Virus record (IMG/VR): IMGVR_UViG_2713896785_000028
Span: 1 to 45,586 of that record
Length of the DNA stretch: 45,586 nt
From: a virus
Lineage: Duplodnaviria; Heunggongvirae; Uroviricota; Caudoviricetes
Direction: 5' to 3' (one strand)
Below the pieces are notes generated by a model that made no database searches, was not told the DNA's origin, and was given only the letters and a program-made list of their open reading frames with translations. The position numbers and the translations under genes are program-made. How positions within the stretch are numbered: the first letter of the stretch is position 1; every line of letters begins with the position of its first letter. Below are positions 10,988 to 19,982 of the stretch, piece by piece.

Positions 10988-11016
10988 TTACAATATATGA
11001 CTTGTCAAAGTATAAT
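10988..11016 (+). promoter_or_regulatory. Putative sigma70 promoter of the ATPase-protease cassette
   Basis: TTACAA, 17-bp spacer, perfect TATAAT, ending about 10 nt before the ATG at 11027. Confidence 0.4.
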
Positions 11017-11026
11017 GAGAGATTGC

Positions 11027-12130
11027 ATGAAGATTAACCATGAGGATTTAATTGATCTTATAAAGGCATCACTGGATGCGAATTACAGCGAAGTTCGTAG
11101 TGTTAGTAATCGCATTGTTCGCGCAATTAGCGCTCAGGATGCTGACTTAGCAAAGCAAATTAAGTCTATCATCCGTAAAAAAGGGGTACCATTACGTAGC
11201 TCTGGTTATACGGACAGTTTGCCCTTAGATCCGAAATCAAGGATGCCTTTAGTGGAAGAAGTCGAATGGCCTGCAACGCCTTTATTTCTTTCTGATGAAT
11301 CACAGCATATTTTTCATGCTTTTATTCAGAATGTTATCCATCAGAATGAACTTATAGAGAATGGAATTCCAGGTAAATTGAATTTACTTCTTTCTGGTCC
11401 GCCAGGAACAGGTAAGACATTAGTCGCTGGTCATATCGCATCCAAATTAAACAAACCGCTCTATGTTGTTCGGCTTGACTCTGTTATTTCTTCTCTGTTA
11501 GGTGATACAGCGAAGAACCTAAGACAGATTTTTGACTTCGTCCCGACAAAAGATGGTGTGTTATTTCTTGATGAAGTAGATGCGGTTGCTAAGCTTCGTG
11601 ATGACAATCAGGAAGTTGGAGAGTTAAAAAGAGTTGTTAACACATTAATCCAAGGACTGGATTCTCTTGATGATTCTGCTATTGTCATTGCTGCAACTAA
11701 TCATTCGAAGCTATTGGATCCAGCAATTTGGAGACGTTTCCCATATAAAATTAGCTTTGGTTTGCCTGGACAAGATGTCAGATGTGCTATGTGGGAACAT
11801 TTTTTATTTAGAGATGATACGGATTCATTTCTAAGTAAAATGTTATCTATCATATCAACTGGGCTAACAGGTGCTGATATTGAAAATATCAGTTTATCTG
11901 CAAGAAGGCATAGTGTTTTATCTGGCAATGGACTGGATATACCATCTGTTGTTTATGCTATATTGAATAGCGTTGCAGATAGTACAGCAATTCCTTTTGG
12001 TAAGGATATAAATTCGAGTGTTAAGAAAAATTTAGCGAAGGAATTATCTAAGTTTAAATTATCACAGGCAGATATCGGTAGACTTTTAAATGTGAGCAGG
12101 CAAACTATATCAGGTTATTTCAAGGAATAA
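11027..12130 (+). CDS. AAA+ ATPase (IetA-like candidate defence ATPase)
   Basis: 367 aa from the ATG downstream of the predicted promoter (track ORF starts at 10997); Walker A LLLSGPPGTGKT, Walker B VLFLDEVD, sensor-1 IAATNH, Arg-finger region DPAIWRRF; HTH-like C-terminus (LSQADIGRLLNVSRQTISGY); visibly AT-rich. Confidence 0.8.
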   Translation: MKINHEDLIDLIKASLDANYSEVRSVSNRIVRAISAQDADLAKQIKSIIRKKGVPLRSSGYTDSLPLDPKSRMPLVEEVEWPATPLFLSDESQHIFHAFIQNVIHQNELIENGIPGKLNLLLSGPPGTGKTLVAGHIASKLNKPLYVVRLDSVISSLLGDTAKNLRQIFDFVPTKDGVLFLDEVDAVAKLRDDNQEVGELKRVVNTLIQGLDSLDDSAIVIAATNHSKLLDPAIWRRFPYKISFGLPGQDVRCAMWEHFLFRDDTDSFLSKMLSIISTGLTGADIENISLSARRHSVLSGNGLDIPSVVYAILNSVADSTAIPFGKDINSSVKKNLAKELSKFKLSQADIGRLLNVSRQTISGYFKE

Positions 12131-12132
12131 TT

Positions 12133-14400
12133 ATGGTCAGTGAAAATAAAGCTAAAATTTTAAACCCAATAATTACTTTATTGAAACCACCAACGCCAGA
12201 GGCGATTCCTGTTGGAGGGAAAAGTCGTAAAAATATTGTTGGTTCACGGTTGAAACAACAGCGTGAAGTTTTATCCTCAGAGATAGATTCCATATTAAGA
12301 ACAGAAGGTGAAATAGTTAAACATCGTGGTAAGTATCATATAGTAACAAGTATGTTTGAGGACTCATATGCACCATCGTTTATACCAGATTCATTATTCT
12401 GTCCCAGTGTTGAATGTAAGATAGTTGCACCAGCATACAATGGATATTTAATTGAGGTCAATAGCAATGCTTTATTGAAGTTGAAAAATAAAATTAATAA
12501 TGCAAAAGCTATTACTGATCTTGTGGATATTTCAAGGGTTAGAAGTGTTAGTCTTTTTGATTCATCTTGTACATTGCGAAATAGTAGCCTTGATTCGCTC
12601 TGGAATACAGTTAAGGCTTTGAATACATTTCAATTTAATATGTGGCTTATGCCTTTTTTTGATGAGCTTTCTAGAGAGTCTGTAGTTTCAACTTTTTTAA
12701 ATTTTTTAAATGATGGTATCATCGCTTTTGGTTATTCAGATTTTGACATAAAAACTATAAATCAAGATGCTGCTGTTGGCGGGGATAATATAGTCATAGT
12801 TCCACCGTTACTTATTGAAGCGATAAAAAAGTATCGTAAATCAGGTCAAGCATCCGTTACCGTCACTGTAGAGACTAAAGATAGTTTAAACAGGATACTG
12901 AATAGCAGTGCTGTGTATCGTATAGATCCTGTATCACCGCTAAACGTAACAGATACTCCTCCTGGTAATGGGGCTGAACCTGTTCCACCAATATTGGGGG
13001 ATAAGAAAATGCCAACTGTAGTTGTAATTGATGGTGGGTGTAATGCGAAATCATATTCAAATTTAAATATATATAAACTAAATCCGCTAATTCCAGATCA
13101 TGATGCAGATTGTAAACATGGTAATAAAGTTGTATCGTTGTTATGTCACGGTTATGCTTGGAATAATAATTTAAACTTACCTAAATTGCAATGTAGCTAT
13201 ATAAGTGCACAGGCTATTGCGAAAAGGGGAGTGTTGAAACAACCAACTCCGGATCAATTTTTAAATTATTTAAGAATGGTTGCTGACAAAACGTCATCTA
13301 TCGCCAAGGTCTGGAATCTTTCGTTTAATGAAGACGCTCCTCATTATAACTGTAATGAGATAAGTTATCTGGGACATAAAATCAGTTTGTTGGCTCGAGA
13401 ATTTGGTATTCTGCCTGTAATATCTATCGGTAATGTTTCAAAGAACGAAAAACAAAAAAATCTTTGTCCGCCCGCAGATTGTGAGTCAGGAATTACAGTA
13501 AGTGGGAGAACGGCCAATCATGAAGGAATGCCTTCAGATGGCTGTCCTTTAAGTCGGAAAGGCCCTGCTCCTGCAGGAATGAAAAAACCTGAGTTATCAT
13601 GGTTTTCTCGAGTTAGGGTGATAGGTGGAACAGTAGATATCGGAACAAGTTTTAGTGCTCCATTAGTTTCATCTATTGCTGCTCATACCTTTTCGAATAT
13701 TAAAAATGCCACTCCTGATTTGGTTAGGGCATTATTGATTAACAGGAGTGAGTTGCTTTCTCATGATGATGCATTAGGATGGGGGACTCCTTGGGATGGC
13801 GATTTACTGCCATGGTATTGTAAAGATGGCAGTGTCACATTAACGTGGATATCTAAGTTAAAGGCTGGGGCTGCTTATTATTGGAACGATCTTCCATTAC
13901 CTCCAGAGATGTTAGTTAATGGTAAATTAGTTGGTGAGATATCTCTGACAGCTATACTAAAACCTAAGGTTTCTGAGTTCGGAAGTGAGAACTATTTTTC
14001 GACAAGGCTCCAATGTTCGTTACAGGCAATAAAAGAAATTAACGGAACGCTAAAAACAGAAAGCCTTCTTGGGTCAATGAAAGAATCTTCTGTTGATGAG
14101 CGTAAAGCTAGAAATGAACTTTCTAAATGGAGCCCTATTCGCCATCATGCAGAGTCGTTTAAGAGAAAAGATATAACAGGGTGTAAAATTCGGCTTTATG
14201 CTAGGATATATGCTAGAGATTTGTATCAGTATGGGTTAAATAACCAACGGGAGCTTGAAGAGCAAGAGGTTTCCTTTGTTTTAACTTTTAAAAGTGTATC
14301 AGGATCGTCCTCAATATATACATCAATGGTTCAGCAACTTGGTGTTTATGTTGAAAGTGCTGTTATAGATAATCACATTAACATAGATGTTAATAAGTGA
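12133..14400 (+). CDS. Subtilisin-like S8 serine peptidase (IetS-like)
   Basis: 755 aa, 2 nt after the ATPase stop; catalytic-triad motifs in S8 order: Asp (TVVVIDGG), His (HGNKVVS), Ser (GTSFSAPLVSS); about 280-aa N-terminal and 240-aa C-terminal regions of unknown function; AT-rich. Confidence 0.8.
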   Translation: MVSENKAKILNPIITLLKPPTPEAIPVGGKSRKNIVGSRLKQQREVLSSEIDSILRTEGEIVKHRGKYHIVTSMFEDSYAPSFIPDSLFCPSVECKIVAPAYNGYLIEVNSNALLKLKNKINNAKAITDLVDISRVRSVSLFDSSCTLRNSSLDSLWNTVKALNTFQFNMWLMPFFDELSRESVVSTFLNFLNDGIIAFGYSDFDIKTINQDAAVGGDNIVIVPPLLIEAIKKYRKSGQASVTVTVETKDSLNRILNSSAVYRIDPVSPLNVTDTPPGNGAEPVPPILGDKKMPTVVVIDGGCNAKSYSNLNIYKLNPLIPDHDADCKHGNKVVSLLCHGYAWNNNLNLPKLQCSYISAQAIAKRGVLKQPTPDQFLNYLRMVADKTSSIAKVWNLSFNEDAPHYNCNEISYLGHKISLLAREFGILPVISIGNVSKNEKQKNLCPPADCESGITVSGRTANHEGMPSDGCPLSRKGPAPAGMKKPELSWFSRVRVIGGTVDIGTSFSAPLVSSIAAHTFSNIKNATPDLVRALLINRSELLSHDDALGWGTPWDGDLLPWYCKDGSVTLTWISKLKAGAAYYWNDLPLPPEMLVNGKLVGEISLTAILKPKVSEFGSENYFSTRLQCSLQAIKEINGTLKTESLLGSMKESSVDERKARNELSKWSPIRHHAESFKRKDITGCKIRLYARIYARDLYQYGLNNQRELEEQEVSFVLTFKSVSGSSSIYTSMVQQLGVYVESAVIDNHINIDVNK

Positions 14401-15424: not shown

Positions 15425-15714
15425 TGGTGGATTTACGTAAAGCGGCGCGGGGGCAGATGTGCACCATCAGAATTCCTGGCTACTGCAATCACAATCCCGA
15501 AACTTCTGTGCTGGCGCATTACCGACTGGCGGGGACGTGCGGAACAGCGACAAAACCACACGATATGCAGGCAGCGATTGCCTGTAGATCGTGCCACGAT
15601 TTAATCGACGGGCGGGTAAAAACCAGTGATTACACCAAAGAAGAATTACGCCTGATGCATGCAGAAGGTGTTTTTCGCACACAAGAAATCTGGAGAAAGG
15701 AGGGATATTTATGA
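15424..15714 (+). CDS. ybcO: YbcO-like protein (DUF1364, putative Zn-dependent nuclease)
   Basis: 96 aa; Cys/His-rich (CTIRIPGYCNHNPETSVLAHYRLAGTCGT...CRSCHDLID), resembles recalled DLP12 YbcO. Confidence 0.6.
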   Translation: MVDLRKAARGQMCTIRIPGYCNHNPETSVLAHYRLAGTCGTATKPHDMQAAIACRSCHDLIDGRVKTSDYTKEELRLMHAEGVFRTQEIWRKEGYL

Positions 15715-16253
15715 TTTACCCAACGAATACAGGAAAAAGCGGAGAACACCTTCGTCTCACTACGCTGGAAAGTGTCTGGATTCAGGGAAAACTACGTATG
15801 TGGGGGCGCTGGTCATATATTGGTGGTGGCAGGTCAGGAAATATGTTCAATCAGTTGTTGGCATCCAAAAAATTGACGAAAACAGCCATCAATGAAGCCC
15901 TGCGCAGAATGAAAAAAGCGGGAATAGAGAAACCTGAGCTGGAAGCGTTTTTGCGAGAGATGATCAATGGTAAGCAAAAGAGCTGGCTGGCGCATTGTAC
16001 TGATGCAGAGGCGTTATGTATTGATCGGGTTATAAGTGAGGTGCTGGCAGAACATCCGGGATTGATTAGCATCCTCCGACAACGGTATGAGGGGCGAGGA
16101 ATGAGTAAGAGAAGGATGGCCGGGTTACTAAACGAACAGTATCCAGAGTGGTGTTTTAACACATGCGAAAAGCGAATTGCTAATTGGTTGGCTGTTGCTG
16201 AGTGTGCGCTATACATTCCCATGCGAGAATCATTTGCTCAAAAAATGGCTTGA
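15711..16253 (+). CDS. Q: Late-gene antiterminator Q (lambdoid Q-like)
   Basis: 180 aa; strong AAGGAGGG RBS; WG-W motif (KLRMWGRWSY) recalled from Q-family antiterminators; immediately upstream of a tR'-like terminator and the late region. Confidence 0.6.
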   Translation: MIYPTNTGKSGEHLRLTTLESVWIQGKLRMWGRWSYIGGGRSGNMFNQLLASKKLTKTAINEALRRMKKAGIEKPELEAFLREMINGKQKSWLAHCTDAEALCIDRVISEVLAEHPGLISILRQRYEGRGMSKRRMAGLLNEQYPEWCFNTCEKRIANWLAVAECALYIPMRESFAQKMA

Positions 16254-16334
16254 TTTCTTACGCATAAACTGCTTCAATTCCGATACGCTTCGCAAAGCTG
16301 TATCGCGTGGCGAATTAATCGCATGAACTTCACC

Positions 16335-16362
16335 AGAACCCGCCATTGAGCGGGTTTTGTTG
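16335..16362 (+). terminator. tR'-like terminator downstream of Q
   Basis: CCCGCCATTGAGCGGG hairpin followed by TTTTGTTGTT. Confidence 0.55.
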
Positions 16363-16706
16363 TTATGTTTAACCATCTACGGGAGAGCTGGCGCTCTACT
16401 GACTGGTATTTTGATAACGAAATCTTAAATATTTTATATTGTGATTGTTAGTTGTCTAAATTTTATGTATGTTAAGCGGCACAGGATTCCTCCTGCGACG
16501 AAGTTTTAGTGGAATCATTATTTACTTTTCTTATGCCAGCCTTTCCTTGAGGTTGGTTTTTTTATACCTGAAAAAGCAGGTTGGTACGTTAAACTTTATG
16601 ATGGCTATGCAATTTTAGTTTCTCCTTTCCTGAACCCTCTTGACTACATGGAATTTTCTTTGTTATGTAAAGCGAGTTAATGTTGTTAAGTTGTTAGAGG
16701 ATGATT

Positions 16707-17420
16707 ATGAGTGACAGTACTCTGCTCAGGAATTCTTCACTTTTTGTTGCTTACATGGGGTGTCTTGGGTGGGGAAGTGCTTATTTCTATGGCTGGGGTA
16801 CTTCCTTTTACTATGGCTTTCCATGGTGGGTTGTCGGGGCCGGTGTTGATGATGTGGCCAGAAGCCTGTTTTATGCTGTCACAGTTATCGTTATATTCTT
16901 GGCTGGATGGGGGATCGGTATTGTCTTCTTTCTGGGGATCAAACAAAAAAATAATATGAAGGATTTGAGTGCTGTCAGGCTTTTTCTTGCGATATTGTTG
17001 CTTTTTGTTCCTCCGGCTCTGGAGTTTTCGGTAATTCATCAGCACTTTGTGCCAGATGCATTGGTTTTATGCGCTATTGTGGCATTAATAATTACCATGT
17101 TCGTCAGAACGGGCAGGAAGTTTATTTACGTTAAATGTATTTCTGAAGTGTCTTTTATTCGGCATCACAAGATTGAGTGTGTTATGGCCGGATTCATGCT
17201 CTATTTCTGGTTGTTTTCGCTTATTGCTGGATGGTACAAACCTCAGTTTAAGAAGGAGTATCAGACACTTCACTATGAGAGCGTTTGGTATTACGTTCTT
17301 GCTCGCTATGGTGATCGCTTGGTTTTATCAAAATCGTACAGGCACGGTAGTACGAATTTCGTTATACTTAATAGCGCACATACAGATGAATTTGAAATTA
17401 ATATAGTCAAAGTGCGCTAA
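16707..17420 (+). CDS. Multi-pass membrane protein, moron of unknown function
   Basis: 237 aa from the ATG with an AGAGGA RBS; about five hydrophobic helices rich in Trp/Gly/Tyr plus a roughly 50-aa hydrophilic C-terminus; AT-rich gene with an AT-rich upstream region. Confidence 0.6.
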   Translation: MSDSTLLRNSSLFVAYMGCLGWGSAYFYGWGTSFYYGFPWWVVGAGVDDVARSLFYAVTVIVIFLAGWGIGIVFFLGIKQKNNMKDLSAVRLFLAILLLFVPPALEFSVIHQHFVPDALVLCAIVALIITMFVRTGRKFIYVKCISEVSFIRHHKIECVMAGFMLYFWLFSLIAGWYKPQFKKEYQTLHYESVWYYVLARYGDRLVLSKSYRHGSTNFVILNSAHTDEFEINIVKVR

Positions 17421-17560
17421 AACATTATGAGTAACCGGGATATAGACTTTTCTGCTTGTTGTTCAGATATTTTTACTTGATTGTAGCTGACATACAAGAT
17501 TTAAACGGTTGTGTTGGGTGGATTACAGCGCTAAACTGATTCAGTCAATATTTTTCAATC

Positions 17561-17636
17561 GGCCCTTTAGCTCAGTGGTGAGAGCGAGCGACTCATAATC
17601 GCCTGGTCGCTGGTTCAAATCCAGCAAGGGCCACCA
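17561..17636 (+). tRNA. tRNA with anticodon CAU (Ile2/lysidine type, ileX/ileZ-like)
   Basis: Cloverleaf read by hand: acceptor GGCCCTT/AAGGGCC, D-arm TAGCTCAGTGGTGAGAGC, anticodon loop CTCATAA, T-loop GGTTCAAATCC, encoded CCA; close to the recalled E. coli ileX sequence. Confidence 0.8.
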
Positions 17637-17638
17637 TT

Positions 17639-17715
17639 CCGCCACTAGCTCATCGGGATAGAGCATCAACCTTCTAAGTTGATTGTGCGAGGTTCGAGTC
17701 CTCGGTGGCGGACCA
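17639..17715 (+). tRNA. tRNA-Arg (anticodon UCU)
   Basis: Cloverleaf read by hand: acceptor CCGCCAC/GTGGCGG, anticodon stem TCAAC/GTTGA, loop CTTCTAA, T-arm CGAGGTTCGAGTCCTCG, discriminator A plus CCA. Confidence 0.8.
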
Positions 17716-18777
17716 TTCCATGCAAGTTTAGCTGGCAGCGCTATTAGCTCGGCGTAATAGGGCTATTCGTTAGGCTCTGTTAGTTCACCATATTTCGTCA
17801 AAACTTTTCTTTTCAACGCTACAGTTAACGTTAATCATTACAAAAACTACTGCTGATGTAAGTCTTGTGAACTGTTATTTCTGAAGAGCTTACTGTGATT
17901 TATTGCGACAACGGAGTTAGCGTACTCCCAATTTGTTCATTTTTATGTTGTTTTTTTTCACAATTTCCTGTGAGAAATCAGAAGTCTGGATGAAATAACG
18001 TAAATTGTATGCGTATGATACATATTTATACATATATTTAAATATGAAAACTAATTAGTTTTTGATGTCATATAAATTATCGGTAATATTACTCCCGACC
18101 CGAAAGGCAGCAAGTTTCTGTTCACAGGGGTGTTACCCGCTGTCTTGCGGGTCATTGCAGGCATCCGTTTAATCATAATGAAGGGCTGTTATCAGTATCA
18201 GTGTCATTATTGTGGTTACGGAGGCCTGCTCTATGTGCAGGTATCGTATAGTGGTTATTACATCAGCCTTAGGTTGGTAATGCCGGTTCGATTCCTGTTC
18301 TCCGCAACTTCATTGTTTTTTTGGACAAGTTTTTACAGCACTGGCGAATTTTCGTGAAGAACAGACCTGGCAGGTGGATTTGTTGTTCTTCATTCTGTAG
18401 ACCTGACCGCCTACAGTTTCAGTGCTTTTTTTGTAGTCATCCCTGCATGTTGCAGGGATGAGGTGATACCAGAATGCGTCGTTGTCTGTTTCCGGGCTTA
18501 CGATTTGCCAGTTTGCACAGCAGGCTGACGGCGCATTCTTATAACATCTATACAAGTAAACTCTGTTTCATCATTACATTGCGTTAGCCCGCCTTATGTG
18601 TGGGCATTTTTTTACCTATGCATATGGCTCGCTGCGGCGGGCCTTTTTCATATCCGCGCCACGCCTGGCGCACATCACATCAGATAGCGCCACACAAAAG
18701 GTATCTGCGGGTGCCTTTGACGGGGTGTTTTTTTACGGGCCGACAGAGGCCCTTTTTTATTTACAGGAGAAAAACGT

Positions 18778-19167
18778 ATGTCTGAACCCTTGTCCGGTTC
18801 CGGCACGGCTGCGGCGCTCGGCGGGGCGACGGTATTCGGGCTGTTTACCGGAACGGATTTCGGGATTGTGTTTGGTGCATTCGCAGGGGCGCTGTTTGTG
18901 GCCACGATACCACAGCAGATTTCTGTCTGGCGTGTGGCAGCGCATTTTCTGGTGTCGTTCATTGTTGGCGTGCTGGGGGCGGATGTGATGGCGTCTTACC
19001 TGGTTGAAAAACTGAATCTCCACAGCACATCTCTCGACGCGCTTTGCGCGGTACTGGTATCGGTGGTGTCGGTGAAGATTCTCTCATTCATCCACCAGCA
19101 GGATATCGCATCGCTGGTATCCGGGCTGTTCTCCCGTCTGCGGGGTGGAGGCGGCAATGTTAAATAA
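18778..19167 (+). CDS. Putative holin / lysis membrane protein
   Basis: 129 aa; Gly/Ala-rich transmembrane segments; GGAGAAAAAC RBS; first gene of the lysis cassette upstream of the endolysin. Confidence 0.5.
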   Translation: MSEPLSGSGTAAALGGATVFGLFTGTDFGIVFGAFAGALFVATIPQQISVWRVAAHFLVSFIVGVLGADVMASYLVEKLNLHSTSLDALCAVLVSVVSVKILSFIHQQDIASLVSGLFSRLRGGGGNVK

Positions 19168-19435
19168 CCTTCCCGGATTGCTGAATGTGGCGTCATGTAC
19201 GGTTATCGTGCTGACGCTCTTTTTTTATCGTCGTCGTGATTCCAGACATAAACCGCTGATGTCATGGCTGGCCTGGCTGCTGATGCTGCTGTATGCCTTT
19301 GCGCCCCTCAGCTATCTGTGTGGTCGCTTTCCACCCGGTAACTGGCTGGTCGTCCTGATTAACCTGGTGTTCTGCGTGCTGGTGATACGAGCACGCGGGA
19401 ACGTATCAAAAATCCTTGTATTACGAAGGCGCTGA
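19157..19435 (+). CDS. Putative holin (three TM segments, basic C-terminus)
   Basis: 92 aa from the ATG with a GGAGG RBS; three hydrophobic segments and a C-terminal RRR; ends 2 nt before the endolysin start. Confidence 0.5.
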   Translation: MLNNLPGLLNVASCTVIVLTLFFYRRRDSRHKPLMSWLAWLLMLLYAFAPLSYLCGRFPPGNWLVVLINLVFCVLVIRARGNVSKILVLRRR

Positions 19436-19436
19436 T

Positions 19437-19982
19437 ATGAAGTCGAAAGATGAAATTTTTGACGAAATTCTGGGAAAAGAGGGCGGTTACGTCAATCACC
19501 CGGATGATAAAGGTGGTCCGACTAAATGGGGCATCACTGAAAAAGTTGCCCGTGCACACGGTTATCAGGGCGATATGCGTGACCTGACGCGTGGGCAGGC
19601 GCTGGAAATACTCGAGGCGGACTACTGGTACGGACCACGATTCGACCAGGTTGAGGACCTGTCTCCTGATATTGCCGCAGAGTTGTGCGATACGGGCGTG
19701 AACATGGGGCCAACTGTGGCGTCCAGAATGCTTCAACGCTGGCTGAACGTTTTCAACCTGCGCGGGAAACTCTATCCGGATATGGATGCTGATGGACGCA
19801 TCGGGCCGCGTACTCTTAATGCATTACGGGCATATCTGAAAAATCGCAGCAGGGATGGTGAACTGGTACTGGTGAAAGCCCTGAACTGTACGCAGGGCGA
19901 GCGTTATCTGGAGCTGGCAGAGAAACGCGAGGCCAATGAGTCGTTTGTCTATGGCTGGATGAAAGAGCGCGTGGTGGTTTAA
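19437..19982 (+). CDS. Endolysin, glycoside hydrolase family 108-type muramidase with C-terminal peptidoglycan-binding region
   Basis: 181 aa; N-terminal signature EGGYVNHPDDKGGPTKWGIT typical of the GH108 family; GAAGG RBS. Confidence 0.85.
   Translation: MKSKDEIFDEILGKEGGYVNHPDDKGGPTKWGITEKVARAHGYQGDMRDLTRGQALEILEADYWYGPRFDQVEDLSPDIAAELCDTGVNMGPTVASRMLQRWLNVFNLRGKLYPDMDADGRIGPRTLNALRAYLKNRSRDGELVLVKALNCTQGERYLELAEKREANESFVYGWMKERVVV

What the first reader, a model, noticed from the sequence alone, without database searches (positions are those of the whole stretch)
16363..17420. AT-rich multi-pass membrane-protein moron directly downstream of Q and tR', at the slot occupied by toxin cargo in Stx-type phages
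Seen in sequence: a 237-aa protein with about five Trp/Gly/Tyr-rich hydrophobic helices and a short soluble tail, encoded in an AT-rich segment with a roughly 340-bp AT-rich leader, between the Q antiterminator/terminator and the tRNA genes. Established knowledge: the Q-to-lysis interval is a classic moron site in lambdoid phages (stx, bor and similar). Inference: this is lysogenic-conversion or superinfection-exclusion/abortive-infection cargo rather than a core late gene.
Basis: partly seen in the sequence, partly recalled or inferred. Interest (0 to 1): 0.55.

Follow-up and report, generated by a model that had tools for sequence, protein, structure and literature searches.

The report
Uncharacterised membrane-protein cargo gene after Q
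The gene is real and encodes a five-helix inner-membrane protein of the catalogued but functionally unknown STM1630 family. It rides as an optional cargo cassette just after the late-gene switch of many E. coli prophages, so it is a reasonable but unproven candidate for a gene that changes the host bacterium, not a new kind of system.

Summary
The ORF at 16707-17420 (+) encodes 237 aa with five transmembrane helices and a small C-terminal beta domain. It lies between a Q-type antiterminator with its terminator and two tRNA genes. AT-richness is only modest (41% GC against 47% for the window).

The protein belongs to the catalogued but uncharacterised STM1630 family (Pfam PF27470, PHROG 1521). 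About 22% of complete E. coli genomes carry a homologue, and phage 434 has one (gp68).

The gene plus a 150-nt leader moves as a cassette. It follows three unrelated Q families, and in one phage it follows stxAB. Phage 434B lost the region and still grows, so the gene is accessory.

The leader has an invariant promoter-like block. Three terminators shield the holin downstream. This gives a moron-like layout, but expression was not tested.

No homology or fold match to lysis, exclusion, defence or enzyme families was found. Purifying selection is clear (dN/dS 0.16).

Salmonella STM1630 is H-NS-bound, SPI-2 co-regulated and linked to colonisation phenotypes. I therefore favour a lysogenic-conversion envelope factor over phage exclusion. 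The mechanism remains inferred.

The parts
15711..16253 (+). Q-type late antiterminator (DUF1133 / Phage_antitermQ). This is context: it is the upstream boundary of the cassette.
   Evidence: Pfam PF06576 3e-106 and PF06530 28.7 bits, above the cutoff of 26.
16334..16364 (+). tR'-like intrinsic terminator belonging to the Q module. The left junction of the cassette lies at its T-run.
   Evidence: Hairpin plus T-run; -16.7 kcal/mol, z -4.86. A similar hairpin (aacccgcc..gagcggg plus T-run) precedes the cassette behind all three Q types. Bases 16254-16364 are 93% identical to phages that lack the cassette.
16365..16556 (+). Window-specific 190-bp AT-rich insertion between tR' and the conserved leader. 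It carries a promoter-like site (16411-16440) and ends in a second terminator.
   Evidence: Absent from L026 and all other contexts. Found in only 5 of 5426 E. coli genomes. Promoter-like TTGATA-18-TATATT scores 10 of 12.
16535..16563 (+). Second intrinsic terminator, at the 3' end of the insertion.
   Evidence: -12.9 kcal/mol, z -4.17.
16557..16706 (+). Conserved 150-nt leader that travels with the gene.
   Evidence: Homology with other copies starts here. The 81%-identity hits begin at query base 302, which is window 16555. No conserved RNA structure was found.
16640..16669 (+). Invariant promoter-like block: -35 TTGACT (16640-16645), 18-nt spacer, TG (16661-16662), -10-like TATGTA (16664-16669).
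   Evidence: CTTGAC..CAT.GAA..TTTGTTATG is at least 90% conserved in 41 of 42 distinct leaders, including copies with only 57% protein identity. The consensus scan did not call it because position 6 of the -10 is A. Function was not tested.
16696..16701 (+). Shine-Dalgarno AGAGGA, 5 nt before ATG 16707.
16707..17420 (+). CDS of a 237-aa STM1630-family (PF27470, phrog_1521) inner-membrane protein: 5 TM helices plus a C-terminal 5-stranded beta domain.
17561..17636 (+). tRNA with anticodon CAT. ARAGORN calls it Met; RefSeq annotates the identical gene as tRNA-Ile.
17639..17715 (+). tRNA-Arg (TCT).
18237..18306 (+). Third, weaker tRNA-like gene. The related prophage of RM11911 has a tRNA-Gly annotated under the match to this interval.
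   Evidence: Rfam tRNA 31.8 bits against a gathering score of 29. ARAGORN did not call it. tRNA-Gly lies under the match in RM11911.
18587..18760 (+). Cluster of three intrinsic terminators just upstream of the holin. It would stop any Q-independent transcript that starts at the cassette.
   Evidence: Folding gives -11.4, -14.5 and -11.6 kcal/mol, with z from -3.3 to -4.2.
18778..19167 (+). First holin of the lysis cassette. This is context: the downstream boundary.
   Evidence: Pfam Phage_holin_8 5e-22.

Best explanation
The feature is a self-contained accessory ('moron'-type) cassette inside the late operon of a Rac-like lambdoid prophage. It consists of a 150-nt leader and one gene.

The gene encodes an STM1630-family polytopic inner-membrane protein. 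Its predicted layout is:
- N-terminus in the cytoplasm.
- Five transmembrane helices.
- A very conserved aromatic and glycine-rich TM1-loop-TM2 unit.
- A roughly 55-residue five-stranded beta domain, predicted to face the periplasm.

Shown: family membership, architecture, purifying selection, cassette mobility behind three unrelated Q modules, and dispensability for phage growth in phage 434.

Inferred:
- The gene is transcribed both by Q-antiterminated read-through from pR' and, at a low level in lysogens, from its own conserved sigma-70-like promoter downstream of tR'.
- That transcript would also cover the rare-codon tRNAs and would be stopped by the terminator cluster before the holin.
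- The protein acts without catalysis, because no polar residue is invariant across the family. It would bind a membrane or periplasmic partner and so alter the envelope physiology of the lysogen.
- It is therefore a lysogenic-conversion or host-fitness factor, like its Salmonella homologue STM1630. It is not a toxin, a lysis protein or a dedicated anti-phage system.
For: Family:
- phrog_1521, 1.7e-85.
- Every homologue carries PF27470.
- PGAP names orthologues 'STM1630 family protein'.
- The published STM1630 deletion primer encodes NSSMLLAYLGGLGWG, which is the family N-terminus. STM1630 is 717 bp and lies next to sseJ, as in loci L008 and L009.

Architecture:
- Hydropathy.
- AF2 model with pLDDT 82.9.
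- Loops 79-91 and 134-157 carry net +3 charge across the family; the other loops are near 0.

Selection: dN/dS is 0.16 overall and 0.07 for residues 1-78.

Cassette:
- The same hairpin, leader and gene follow Q proteins of PF06576/PF06530, PF03589 and PF06323.
- In L083 it follows stxAB.

Accessory status:
- 434B lacks the region and forms plaques.
- It is rare among sequenced phages.

Promoter idea:
- The TTGAC..TGnTATG block is invariant in 41 of 42 leaders.
- There is no conserved RNA fold to explain that conservation.
- Three verified terminators lie before the holin.

Non-enzymatic idea: only G175, A15, A25 and Y26 are near-invariant in the broad alignment.

Host-fitness idea, from work on STM1630:
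- Co-regulated with SPI-2.
- H-NS-bound.
- Expressed in SPI-2-inducing medium and in macrophages.
- Mutants attenuated in calves and chicks.
- A deletion in strain 4/74 replicates more in macrophages.
- A deletion was hypermotile in one screen.
Against: - No expression data exist for this prophage.
- The -10-like hexamer TATGTA (TATGAG in the 434 type) lacks the consensus T at position 6, and the promoter scan did not call it.
- The Salmonella upstream region is not homologous to the phage leader, so its mapped promoter says nothing about this one.
- The STM1630 phenotypes are weak. The hypermotility phenotype was not among those confirmed in the follow-up study. No growth defect was seen in LB. 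The macrophage effect is an increase, not a defect.
- STM1630 is only about 46-48% identical to this protein, so function may differ.
- The periplasmic location of the beta domain follows only from helix counting. The domain itself is net positive.
- No fold or profile match gives any mechanistic handle.
Confidence: 0.45

Rival explanations
1. Superinfection exclusion or abortive infection. The inner-membrane protein blocks DNA entry of incoming phages, or collapses the membrane on infection, and so protects the lysogen.
For: - It is prophage-borne and dispensable.
- It is a single polytopic inner-membrane protein with a probable periplasmic face. This matches the general build of known exclusion proteins (own knowledge).
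- The same prophage already carries an IetAS defence system.
- Homologues occur as solitary genes at variable chromosomal sites in Pasteurellaceae.
Against: - No hit to any of 5027 PADLOC models at E<=1.
- No Pfam hit to any family for 22 diverse members at E<=5.
- No sign of diversifying selection in pairwise dN/dS.
- The Salmonella homologue is regulated with SPI-2 and induced in macrophages. That pattern fits host interaction better than phage defence.
- No experiment links any family member to phage resistance in the papers found.
Confidence: 0.2
2. A purely late, Q-dependent accessory of the lytic cycle. It is made with the lysis proteins and tunes membrane state late in infection, for example lysis timing, holin triggering or blocking re-infection of the dying cell. 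It has no role in the lysogen.
For: - In the E. coli and IMG/VR prophage loci surveyed it almost always lies inside the late operon, as the first gene after tR' or after stxAB, upstream of the lysis genes.
- No consensus promoter was called in the leader.
- No terminator lies between the gene and the tRNAs.
Against: - It occurs with unrelated lysis cassettes: Phage_holin_8 plus a 3TM holin plus a GH108 endolysin here, and a class II pinholin plus SAR endolysin in 434 and O157. A specific holin partnership is therefore unlikely.
- Homologues in Salmonella, Pasteurellaceae and Neisseria have no phage or lysis neighbours.
- 434B grows without it.
- An invariant DNA block in the leader with no RNA structure needs an explanation.
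Confidence: 0.15
3. A toxin-associated helper or self-protection protein that travels with exotoxin and effector loci.
For: Homologues lie directly next to several toxin or effector genes:
- stxA-stxB in L083.
- sseJ in L008 and L009.
- cdtA/cdtC in L016.
- A HlyD plus C39-ABC exporter pair in L010.
STM1630 also lies between steB and sseJ.
Against: - These toxins use four unrelated export routes (own knowledge), so a shared helper is implausible.
- This window and most E. coli loci have no toxin next to the gene.
- Six of the ten non-phage loci examined have only housekeeping neighbours.
- Adjacency may only reflect shared residence in AT-rich, horizontally acquired islets.
Confidence: 0.07
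4. A hitch-hiking gene with no current function in this prophage.
For: The function is unknown, phenotypes of the homologue are weak, and the gene is silenced by promoter SNPs in Salmonella ST313.
Against: - The reading frame is intact.
- dN/dS is 0.16, and 0.07 in the N-terminal third, across 43 alleles.
- The exact protein was seen on 308 contigs.
- The leader block is conserved.
Confidence: 0.05

Closest known systems
Salmonella Typhimurium STM1630 (SL1344_1560), putative inner-membrane protein between steB and sseJ
   Same: - Same family (PF27470, 'STM1630 family protein') and same length (238 aa against 237 aa).
- The N-terminal motif is shared; the published primer-encoded peptide matches.
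- The subsp. arizonae and diarizonae orthologues next to sseJ are 48% identical over the full length. The large S. enterica cluster P0068 is 46% identical.
- Both genes are AT-rich.
   Different: - STM1630 is a chromosomal islet gene, not prophage-borne.
- It has its own mapped promoter, which is unrelated to this leader.
- It is regulated with SPI-2 and bound by H-NS.
- Its function is also unknown.
Phage 434 gp68 (CPT_434_68, 'putative membrane protein') and its O157:H7 prophage orthologues
   Same: - 58% identical.
- Same position, as the first gene after Q and tR'.
- Same conserved leader block.
   Different: - It follows a Q82-type Q (434) or a 207-aa Q (O157).
- It is followed by a DUF3927/TciB-like gene, a NanS-p-type esterase and a pinholin, not by tRNAs.
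Classical lambdoid morons (lambda bor and lom; the stx cassette in the Q-S interval)
   Same: - An optional gene with lower GC embedded in the late region.
- A candidate promoter of its own, with terminators downstream.
- Patchy distribution.
- It shares the Q-to-lysis interval with stx.
   Different: - The promoter is unproven.
- The nearest downstream terminators are 1.2 kb away, beyond three tRNA genes.
- The product is a polytopic inner-membrane protein, not an outer-membrane protein, lipoprotein or secreted toxin. The comparison with bor and lom rests on my own knowledge.
Phage superinfection-exclusion membrane proteins (P22 SieA/SieB, HK97 gp15, T4 Imm, lambda RexB)
   Same: Small, prophage-encoded, dispensable inner-membrane proteins. 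This is a resemblance from my own knowledge, not a tested one.
   Different: - No sequence relationship was detected: Pfam and PADLOC are negative.
- The size and architecture differ (5 TM plus a beta domain).
- The genomic position differs (late operon).
CAAX/CPBP-family membrane protein encoded just after the antiterminator of Sakai prophage Sp4 (ECs_1085)
   Same: Another polytopic membrane protein in the same post-Q position of an O157 lambdoid prophage, ahead of the ileZ-argN-argO tRNAs.
   Different: It is an unrelated family. The window protein has no Pfam hit to CPBP or anything else.

Membership tests
STM1630 family (Pfam PF27470 / PHROG 1521) | Significant full-length sequence similarity to family members. 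| tested here: met
   - phrog_1521 1.7e-85 over residues 19-239.
- 127 homologues, all pre-annotated PF27470, including the 98%-identical cluster representative.
- PGAP uses the name 'STM1630 family protein' on orthologues.
- The STM1630 primer-encoded peptide matches the family N-terminus.
The local Pfam-A and NCBIfam copies lack a model for it.
STM1630 family (Pfam PF27470 / PHROG 1521) | Shared architecture: about 240 aa, five TM helices, a conserved A-Y-x-Y-G-W-G...Y-G-x-P-W motif, and a C-terminal beta domain. | tested here: met
   Alignments A1 and A2; AF2 model; hydropathy.
Moron (autonomous accessory transcription unit in a phage late region) | Dispensable for phage growth and patchily distributed among related phages. 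| tested here: met
   434B lacks it and is viable. It is in 3 of 50,697 phage records. It is found behind three Q types.
Moron (autonomous accessory transcription unit in a phage late region) | Own promoter active in the lysogen. | tested here: inconclusive
   An invariant TTGACT-N18-(TG)TATGTA block lies at 16640-16669 with no RNA-structure explanation. However, the -10 is non-consensus and the scan did not call it. No expression data are available.
Moron (autonomous accessory transcription unit in a phage late region) | Downstream terminator insulating neighbouring phage genes. | tested here: met
   Three intrinsic terminators at 18587-18760 lie before the holin. They are 1.2 kb downstream, beyond the tRNAs.
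Moron (autonomous accessory transcription unit in a phage late region) | Base composition different from the flanks. | tested here: met
   The gene is 41.3% GC and the leader 33% GC, against 46-53% in the flanking genes. The gene is only at the 18th percentile of the window.
Known anti-phage defence or superinfection-exclusion families | Profile match to a described defence or exclusion protein. | tested here: not met
   PADLOC gave 0 families at E<=1. Pfam gave nothing at E<=0.01 for the protein and nothing consistent at E<=5 for 22 members.
Known anti-phage defence or superinfection-exclusion families | Protection against phage infection when expressed. | not testable with these tools
   This needs plating assays.
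Phage lysis proteins (holin, antiholin, endolysin, spanin) | Profile or fold match to a lysis family, and adjacency to the lysis cassette. | tested here: not met
   There are no Pfam or PHROG lysis hits. The best BFVD match to a LydA-type holin model has E 1.7. The gene is separated from the holin by 1.36 kb, three tRNAs and three terminators. It co-occurs with unrelated lysis cassettes.
Moraxella TfpB (a label on one database fragment) | Sequence similarity to Moraxella TfpB. | not tested
   A 101-aa E. coli fragment of the family is named 'protein tfpB' in one record. No TfpB sequence was available to compare. None of the named clusters looked up among the 72 representative hits was from Moraxella or called TfpB.

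The most novel reading that the evidence does not exclude
STM1630-family proteins are a so far unrecognised class of phage-mobilised, non-enzymatic inner-membrane modulators. Expressed from their own promoter in lysogens, they would restrain a membrane process such as energisation, motility or growth, or block entry of foreign DNA. They would repeatedly travel with exotoxin and effector cargo (Stx, Cdt, RTX exporter, SseJ) and so contribute to host colonisation by STEC and Salmonella.
Probability: 0.15. Interest if true: 0.6.

Novelty: new member of a known kind. Interest (0 to 1): 0.33.

Why it matters
- The family is common. About one complete E. coli genome in five carries it, including O157:H7, O145 and O111 prophages and the classical phage 434.
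- It has a fixed place at the head of the late operon, next to where Shiga toxin genes sit.
- It has no known function and no relative among solved structures.
- Its Salmonella homologue is tied to SPI-2 regulation and to animal-colonisation screens.
- A defined cassette with a candidate promoter makes a simple experimental target for asking what prophages add to pathogenic E. coli besides toxins.
- If it proves inert or purely late-expressed, it remains an ordinary hypothetical phage gene.

Tried and rejected
Homology searches that led nowhere:
1. Local Pfam-A, NCBIfam and PADLOC gave no hit.
2. A Pfam scan of 22 diverse members at E<=5 gave only scattered noise.
3. PDB sequence profiles from A1 and A2 gave nothing significant.

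Fold searches:
3. No BFVD match reached E<=0.001.
4. The afdb50 library was unavailable.

Other leads that failed:
- A second large protein search with the diverse alignment added almost nothing, because close E. coli sequences filled the candidate list.
- The RNA-element idea for the leader was rejected: the consensus fold is only -0.77 kcal/mol with no covariation, and Rfam found only tRNAs.
- The conserved short ORF idea in the leader (ATGGAATTT...) was rejected, because the ATG is ATT in the 434-type copies.
- The Salmonella promoter could not be transferred, because the upstream regions do not align.
- The 'tfpB' label could not be checked.
- The TciA/B/C lead concerns the neighbouring DUF3927 and TerB genes of other phages, not this protein.
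- I looked for a Sakai locus tag to mine O157 expression papers. The two regions I opened did not contain the gene.
Full report
**Observation**

The window holds an ORF at 16701..17420 on the + strand. The functional start is almost certainly ATG 16707, which gives 237 aa. An AGAGGA ribosome-binding site lies 5 nt upstream. RefSeq uses this start for the identical protein WP_001285363.1 in strain RM11911, and all homologues start there.

Upstream lie DUF1367, YbcO/DUF1364 and a DUF1133 protein. The DUF1133 protein also passes the Phage_antitermQ threshold, so it is a Q-type antiterminator. It is followed by a strong hairpin plus T-run at 16334-16364. Downstream lie tRNA(CAT) and tRNA-Arg(TCT), a weaker third tRNA, two holins and a GH108 endolysin.

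The rest of the window is a Rac-like lambdoid prophage. It has an integrase, RecT, RecE, a repressor, YdaT, an IstB-like replication protein, terminase and so on.

The gene is 41.3% GC against 47.1% for the window, which is the 18th percentile. The leader is 33-37% GC.

**What the protein is**

The local Pfam-A, NCBIfam and PADLOC libraries give no hit. PHROGs places it in phrog_1521, of unknown function, at 1.7e-85.

All 127 homologous clusters in the 5.8-billion-protein collection carry the precomputed Pfam label PF27470. That model is newer than the local copy. Recent RefSeq annotation calls E. coli orthologues 'STM1630 family protein'.

STM1630 of Salmonella Typhimurium is a 717-bp 'putative membrane protein' next to sseJ. 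The published deletion primer for it encodes NSSMLLAYLGGLGWG, exactly the N-terminal motif of this family. Loci L008 and L009 show the same gene beside an SseJ-like GDSL lipase.

The family is small. An exhaustive HMM search of 1.84 billion representative proteins found 72. Members come from Enterobacteriaceae, Pasteurellaceae and Neisseria.

**Protein anatomy**

Hydropathy and the positive-inside rule give five transmembrane helices. Loops 79-91 and 134-157 are cytoplasmic, each with net +3 charge across the family. Loops 37-46 and 112-117 lie on the other side.

An AlphaFold model built on close homologues alone was poor. With a diverse alignment it reached pLDDT 82.9 and pTM 0.77. It shows helices 10-36, 47-82, 88-111, 116-136 and 155-181, two short helices at 142-153, and five beta strands at 184-235. 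By helix counting, the beta domain and the most conserved segment (AYxYGWG...YYGFPWWVVGAGVDDVARS) face the periplasm. This is inferred.

Across the broad family no polar residue is invariant, which argues against an enzyme. Pairwise dN/dS among 43 alleles is 0.16. It is 0.07 for residues 1-78, 0.24 for 79-157 and 0.19 for 158-237. So this is a real gene under purifying selection, most tightly on TM1-loop-TM2.

**The cassette and its signals**

Aligning the upstream regions of copies from different prophages shows a common unit. A tR'-like hairpin (aacccgcc..gagcggg plus T-run) is followed by a 140-150-nt leader and then the gene.

Upstream of the hairpin the sequences are unrelated. They belong to three different Q families:
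- PF06576/PF06530 in the window.
- PF03589.
- PF06323, the Q82 type, as in phage 434.

Of 99 loci collected, 48 follow a Q82-type protein, 26 a PF03589-type and 6 a DUF1133-type.

Inside the leader, the block CTTGAC(t/g)nCATnGAA....TTTGTTATG is at least 90% conserved in 41 of 42 distinct leaders. This includes copies whose proteins are only 57% identical. It reads as -35 TTGACT, an 18-nt spacer, and an extended -10 TG-n-TATGTA at 16640-16669. There is no conserved RNA structure to explain it. The -10 is non-consensus and the simple scan did not call it, so promoter activity is a hypothesis.

No terminator follows the gene. Three verified intrinsic terminators lie at 18587-18760, just before the holin. 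A Q-independent transcript from the leader would therefore cover the gene and the tRNAs and stop before the lysis genes. That is the layout expected of a moron.

The window also has a private 190-bp insertion (16365-16556) between tR' and the leader. It ends in a second terminator.

**Distribution**

- 1197 of 5426 complete E. coli genomes match the gene at the DNA level, and 460 match over at least 80% of it. They include O157:H7, O145 and O111 strains.
- Only 5 genomes carry this exact allele and leader.
- Among 50,697 phage records only phage 434 and phage 2B8 have it.
- IMG/VR holds 187 relatives.
- In 434 and in an O157:H7 prophage, the gene is followed by a DUF3927 gene, a NanS-p-type esterase and a pinholin.
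- In strain 08-00022 it is followed by a methyltransferase, three tRNAs and TerB/DUF3927.
- In L083 it lies directly after stxA-stxB and before the holin. It therefore accompanies the toxin rather than occupying its place.

Outside prophages, homologues are solitary genes. They sit next to sseJ in Salmonella, next to cdtA/C in Glaesserella, next to a HlyD/C39-ABC exporter in Mesocricetibacter, and among housekeeping genes in Aggregatibacter, Haemophilus ducreyi and Pasteurella.

**Literature**

The phage 434 genome paper lists the gene only as a putative membrane protein. It reports that 434B replaced about 5.5 kb, including Q, the late promoter and the lysis region, with DLP12 sequence and still grows. 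The gene is therefore dispensable.

For STM1630 the papers found report the following:
- Unknown function, absent from S. Typhi, H-NS-bound, and few transposon insertions.
- Co-regulated with SPI-2.
- Expressed in SPI-2-inducing medium and in macrophages.
- Silenced by two -10 SNPs in ST313.
- Signature-tagged mutants attenuated in calves and chicks.
- No growth defect in LB.
- Increased intramacrophage replication of a 4/74 deletion.
- Hypermotility of a deletion in one high-throughput screen, which the follow-up study did not list among its confirmed phenotypes.

**Interpretation**

The secure part is this. The feature is an accessory cassette encoding an STM1630-family inner-membrane protein. 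It is mobile between late-operon contexts and under purifying selection.

The most likely function, at moderate confidence, is lysogenic conversion. I picture a non-catalytic membrane protein acting at the periplasmic face to alter envelope physiology or host interaction. It would be expressed at low level from its own promoter and strongly by Q read-through.

The rivals are:
- Superinfection exclusion is possible but has no positive evidence.
- A purely late lytic role is weakened by the unrelated lysis cassettes it accompanies and by the non-phage homologues.
- A toxin-helper role rests only on recurrent adjacency.
- Loss of function is contradicted by dN/dS.

**Novelty**

The protein and its family are already catalogued, though uncharacterised. 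The architecture of an optional gene in the Q-to-lysis interval is a known kind. This copy is therefore a new member of a known kind.

Interest is moderate to low. It rises if the conserved promoter and a lysogen phenotype are confirmed.

Noticed in passing
window 10997-14400 (+): An IetA (AAA ATPase, PADLOC 5e-100) and IetS (subtilase, 2e-65) anti-phage defence pair. It is very AT-rich (36-37% GC) and is inserted between the replication genes and the nin-like genes of the prophage.
   Followed up: partly
window 16365-16563 (+): A private 190-bp AT-rich insertion between tR' and the conserved leader. It has a good promoter-like site (TTGATA-18-TATATT, 16411-16440) and its own terminator (16535-16563), which is the shape of a roughly 115-nt small RNA gene. 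It is present in only 5 of 5426 complete E. coli genomes and has no Rfam match.
   Followed up: partly
window 18587-18760 (+): Three consecutive intrinsic terminators lie immediately upstream of the holin start codon. Lysis-gene expression should therefore depend strictly on Q-modified polymerase. The last roughly 150 bp are conserved in about 200 E. coli genomes.
   Followed up: partly
window 18237-18306 (+): A third tRNA-like gene, found by Rfam (31.8 bits) but not by ARAGORN. The related prophage of strain RM11911 has a tRNA-Gly annotated under the match to this interval. About 1 kb between the tRNAs and the holin has no convincing ORF.
   Followed up: no
window 16707-17715 (+): The membrane-protein gene uses 5 ATA codons out of 18 Ile, and 6 AGA/AGG out of 10 Arg. 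It is followed directly by tRNA(CAT), annotated tRNA-Ile in RefSeq, and tRNA-Arg(TCT). Those tRNAs read exactly these rare codons.
   Followed up: partly
L083 3540-5714 (IMGVR_UViG_2859677112_000002): A prophage with a divergent Stx1-like A subunit (RIP domain) and B subunit (SLT_beta). It is arranged Q - stxA - stxB - STM1630-family gene - holin - lysozyme. Its STM1630-family protein is 68% identical to the window protein, the same figure as an Enterobacter cloacae protein (P0025).
   Followed up: partly
L016 5955-8017 and L010 5888-9454: Pasteurellaceae homologues lie convergent to a cdtA/cdtB/cdtC-like operon (Glaesserella parasuis) and to a HlyD plus C39-ABC exporter pair (Mesocricetibacter). 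Together with sseJ and stx, this is a recurrent neighbourhood of toxins or effectors whose significance is unknown.
   Followed up: partly
L102 11239-12057 (Sakai prophage Sp4, ECs_1085): In O157:H7 Sakai Sp4, the position just after the antiterminator and before ileZ-argN-argO is held by a different polytopic membrane protein, annotated as CAAX amino-terminal protease family. The post-Q site seems to collect membrane-protein cargo.
   Followed up: no
protein P0194 (EIQ65956.1): One GenBank record names a 101-aa fragment of this family 'protein tfpB', the name of an ORF in the Moraxella pilin inversion region. The link could not be checked.
   Followed up: partly
window 18778-19982 (+): The lysis cassette has two different holin-family genes in tandem and overlapping (Phage_holin_8 and a 3TM Phage_holin_3_7), followed by a GH108 plus PG_binding_3 endolysin.
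   Followed up: no
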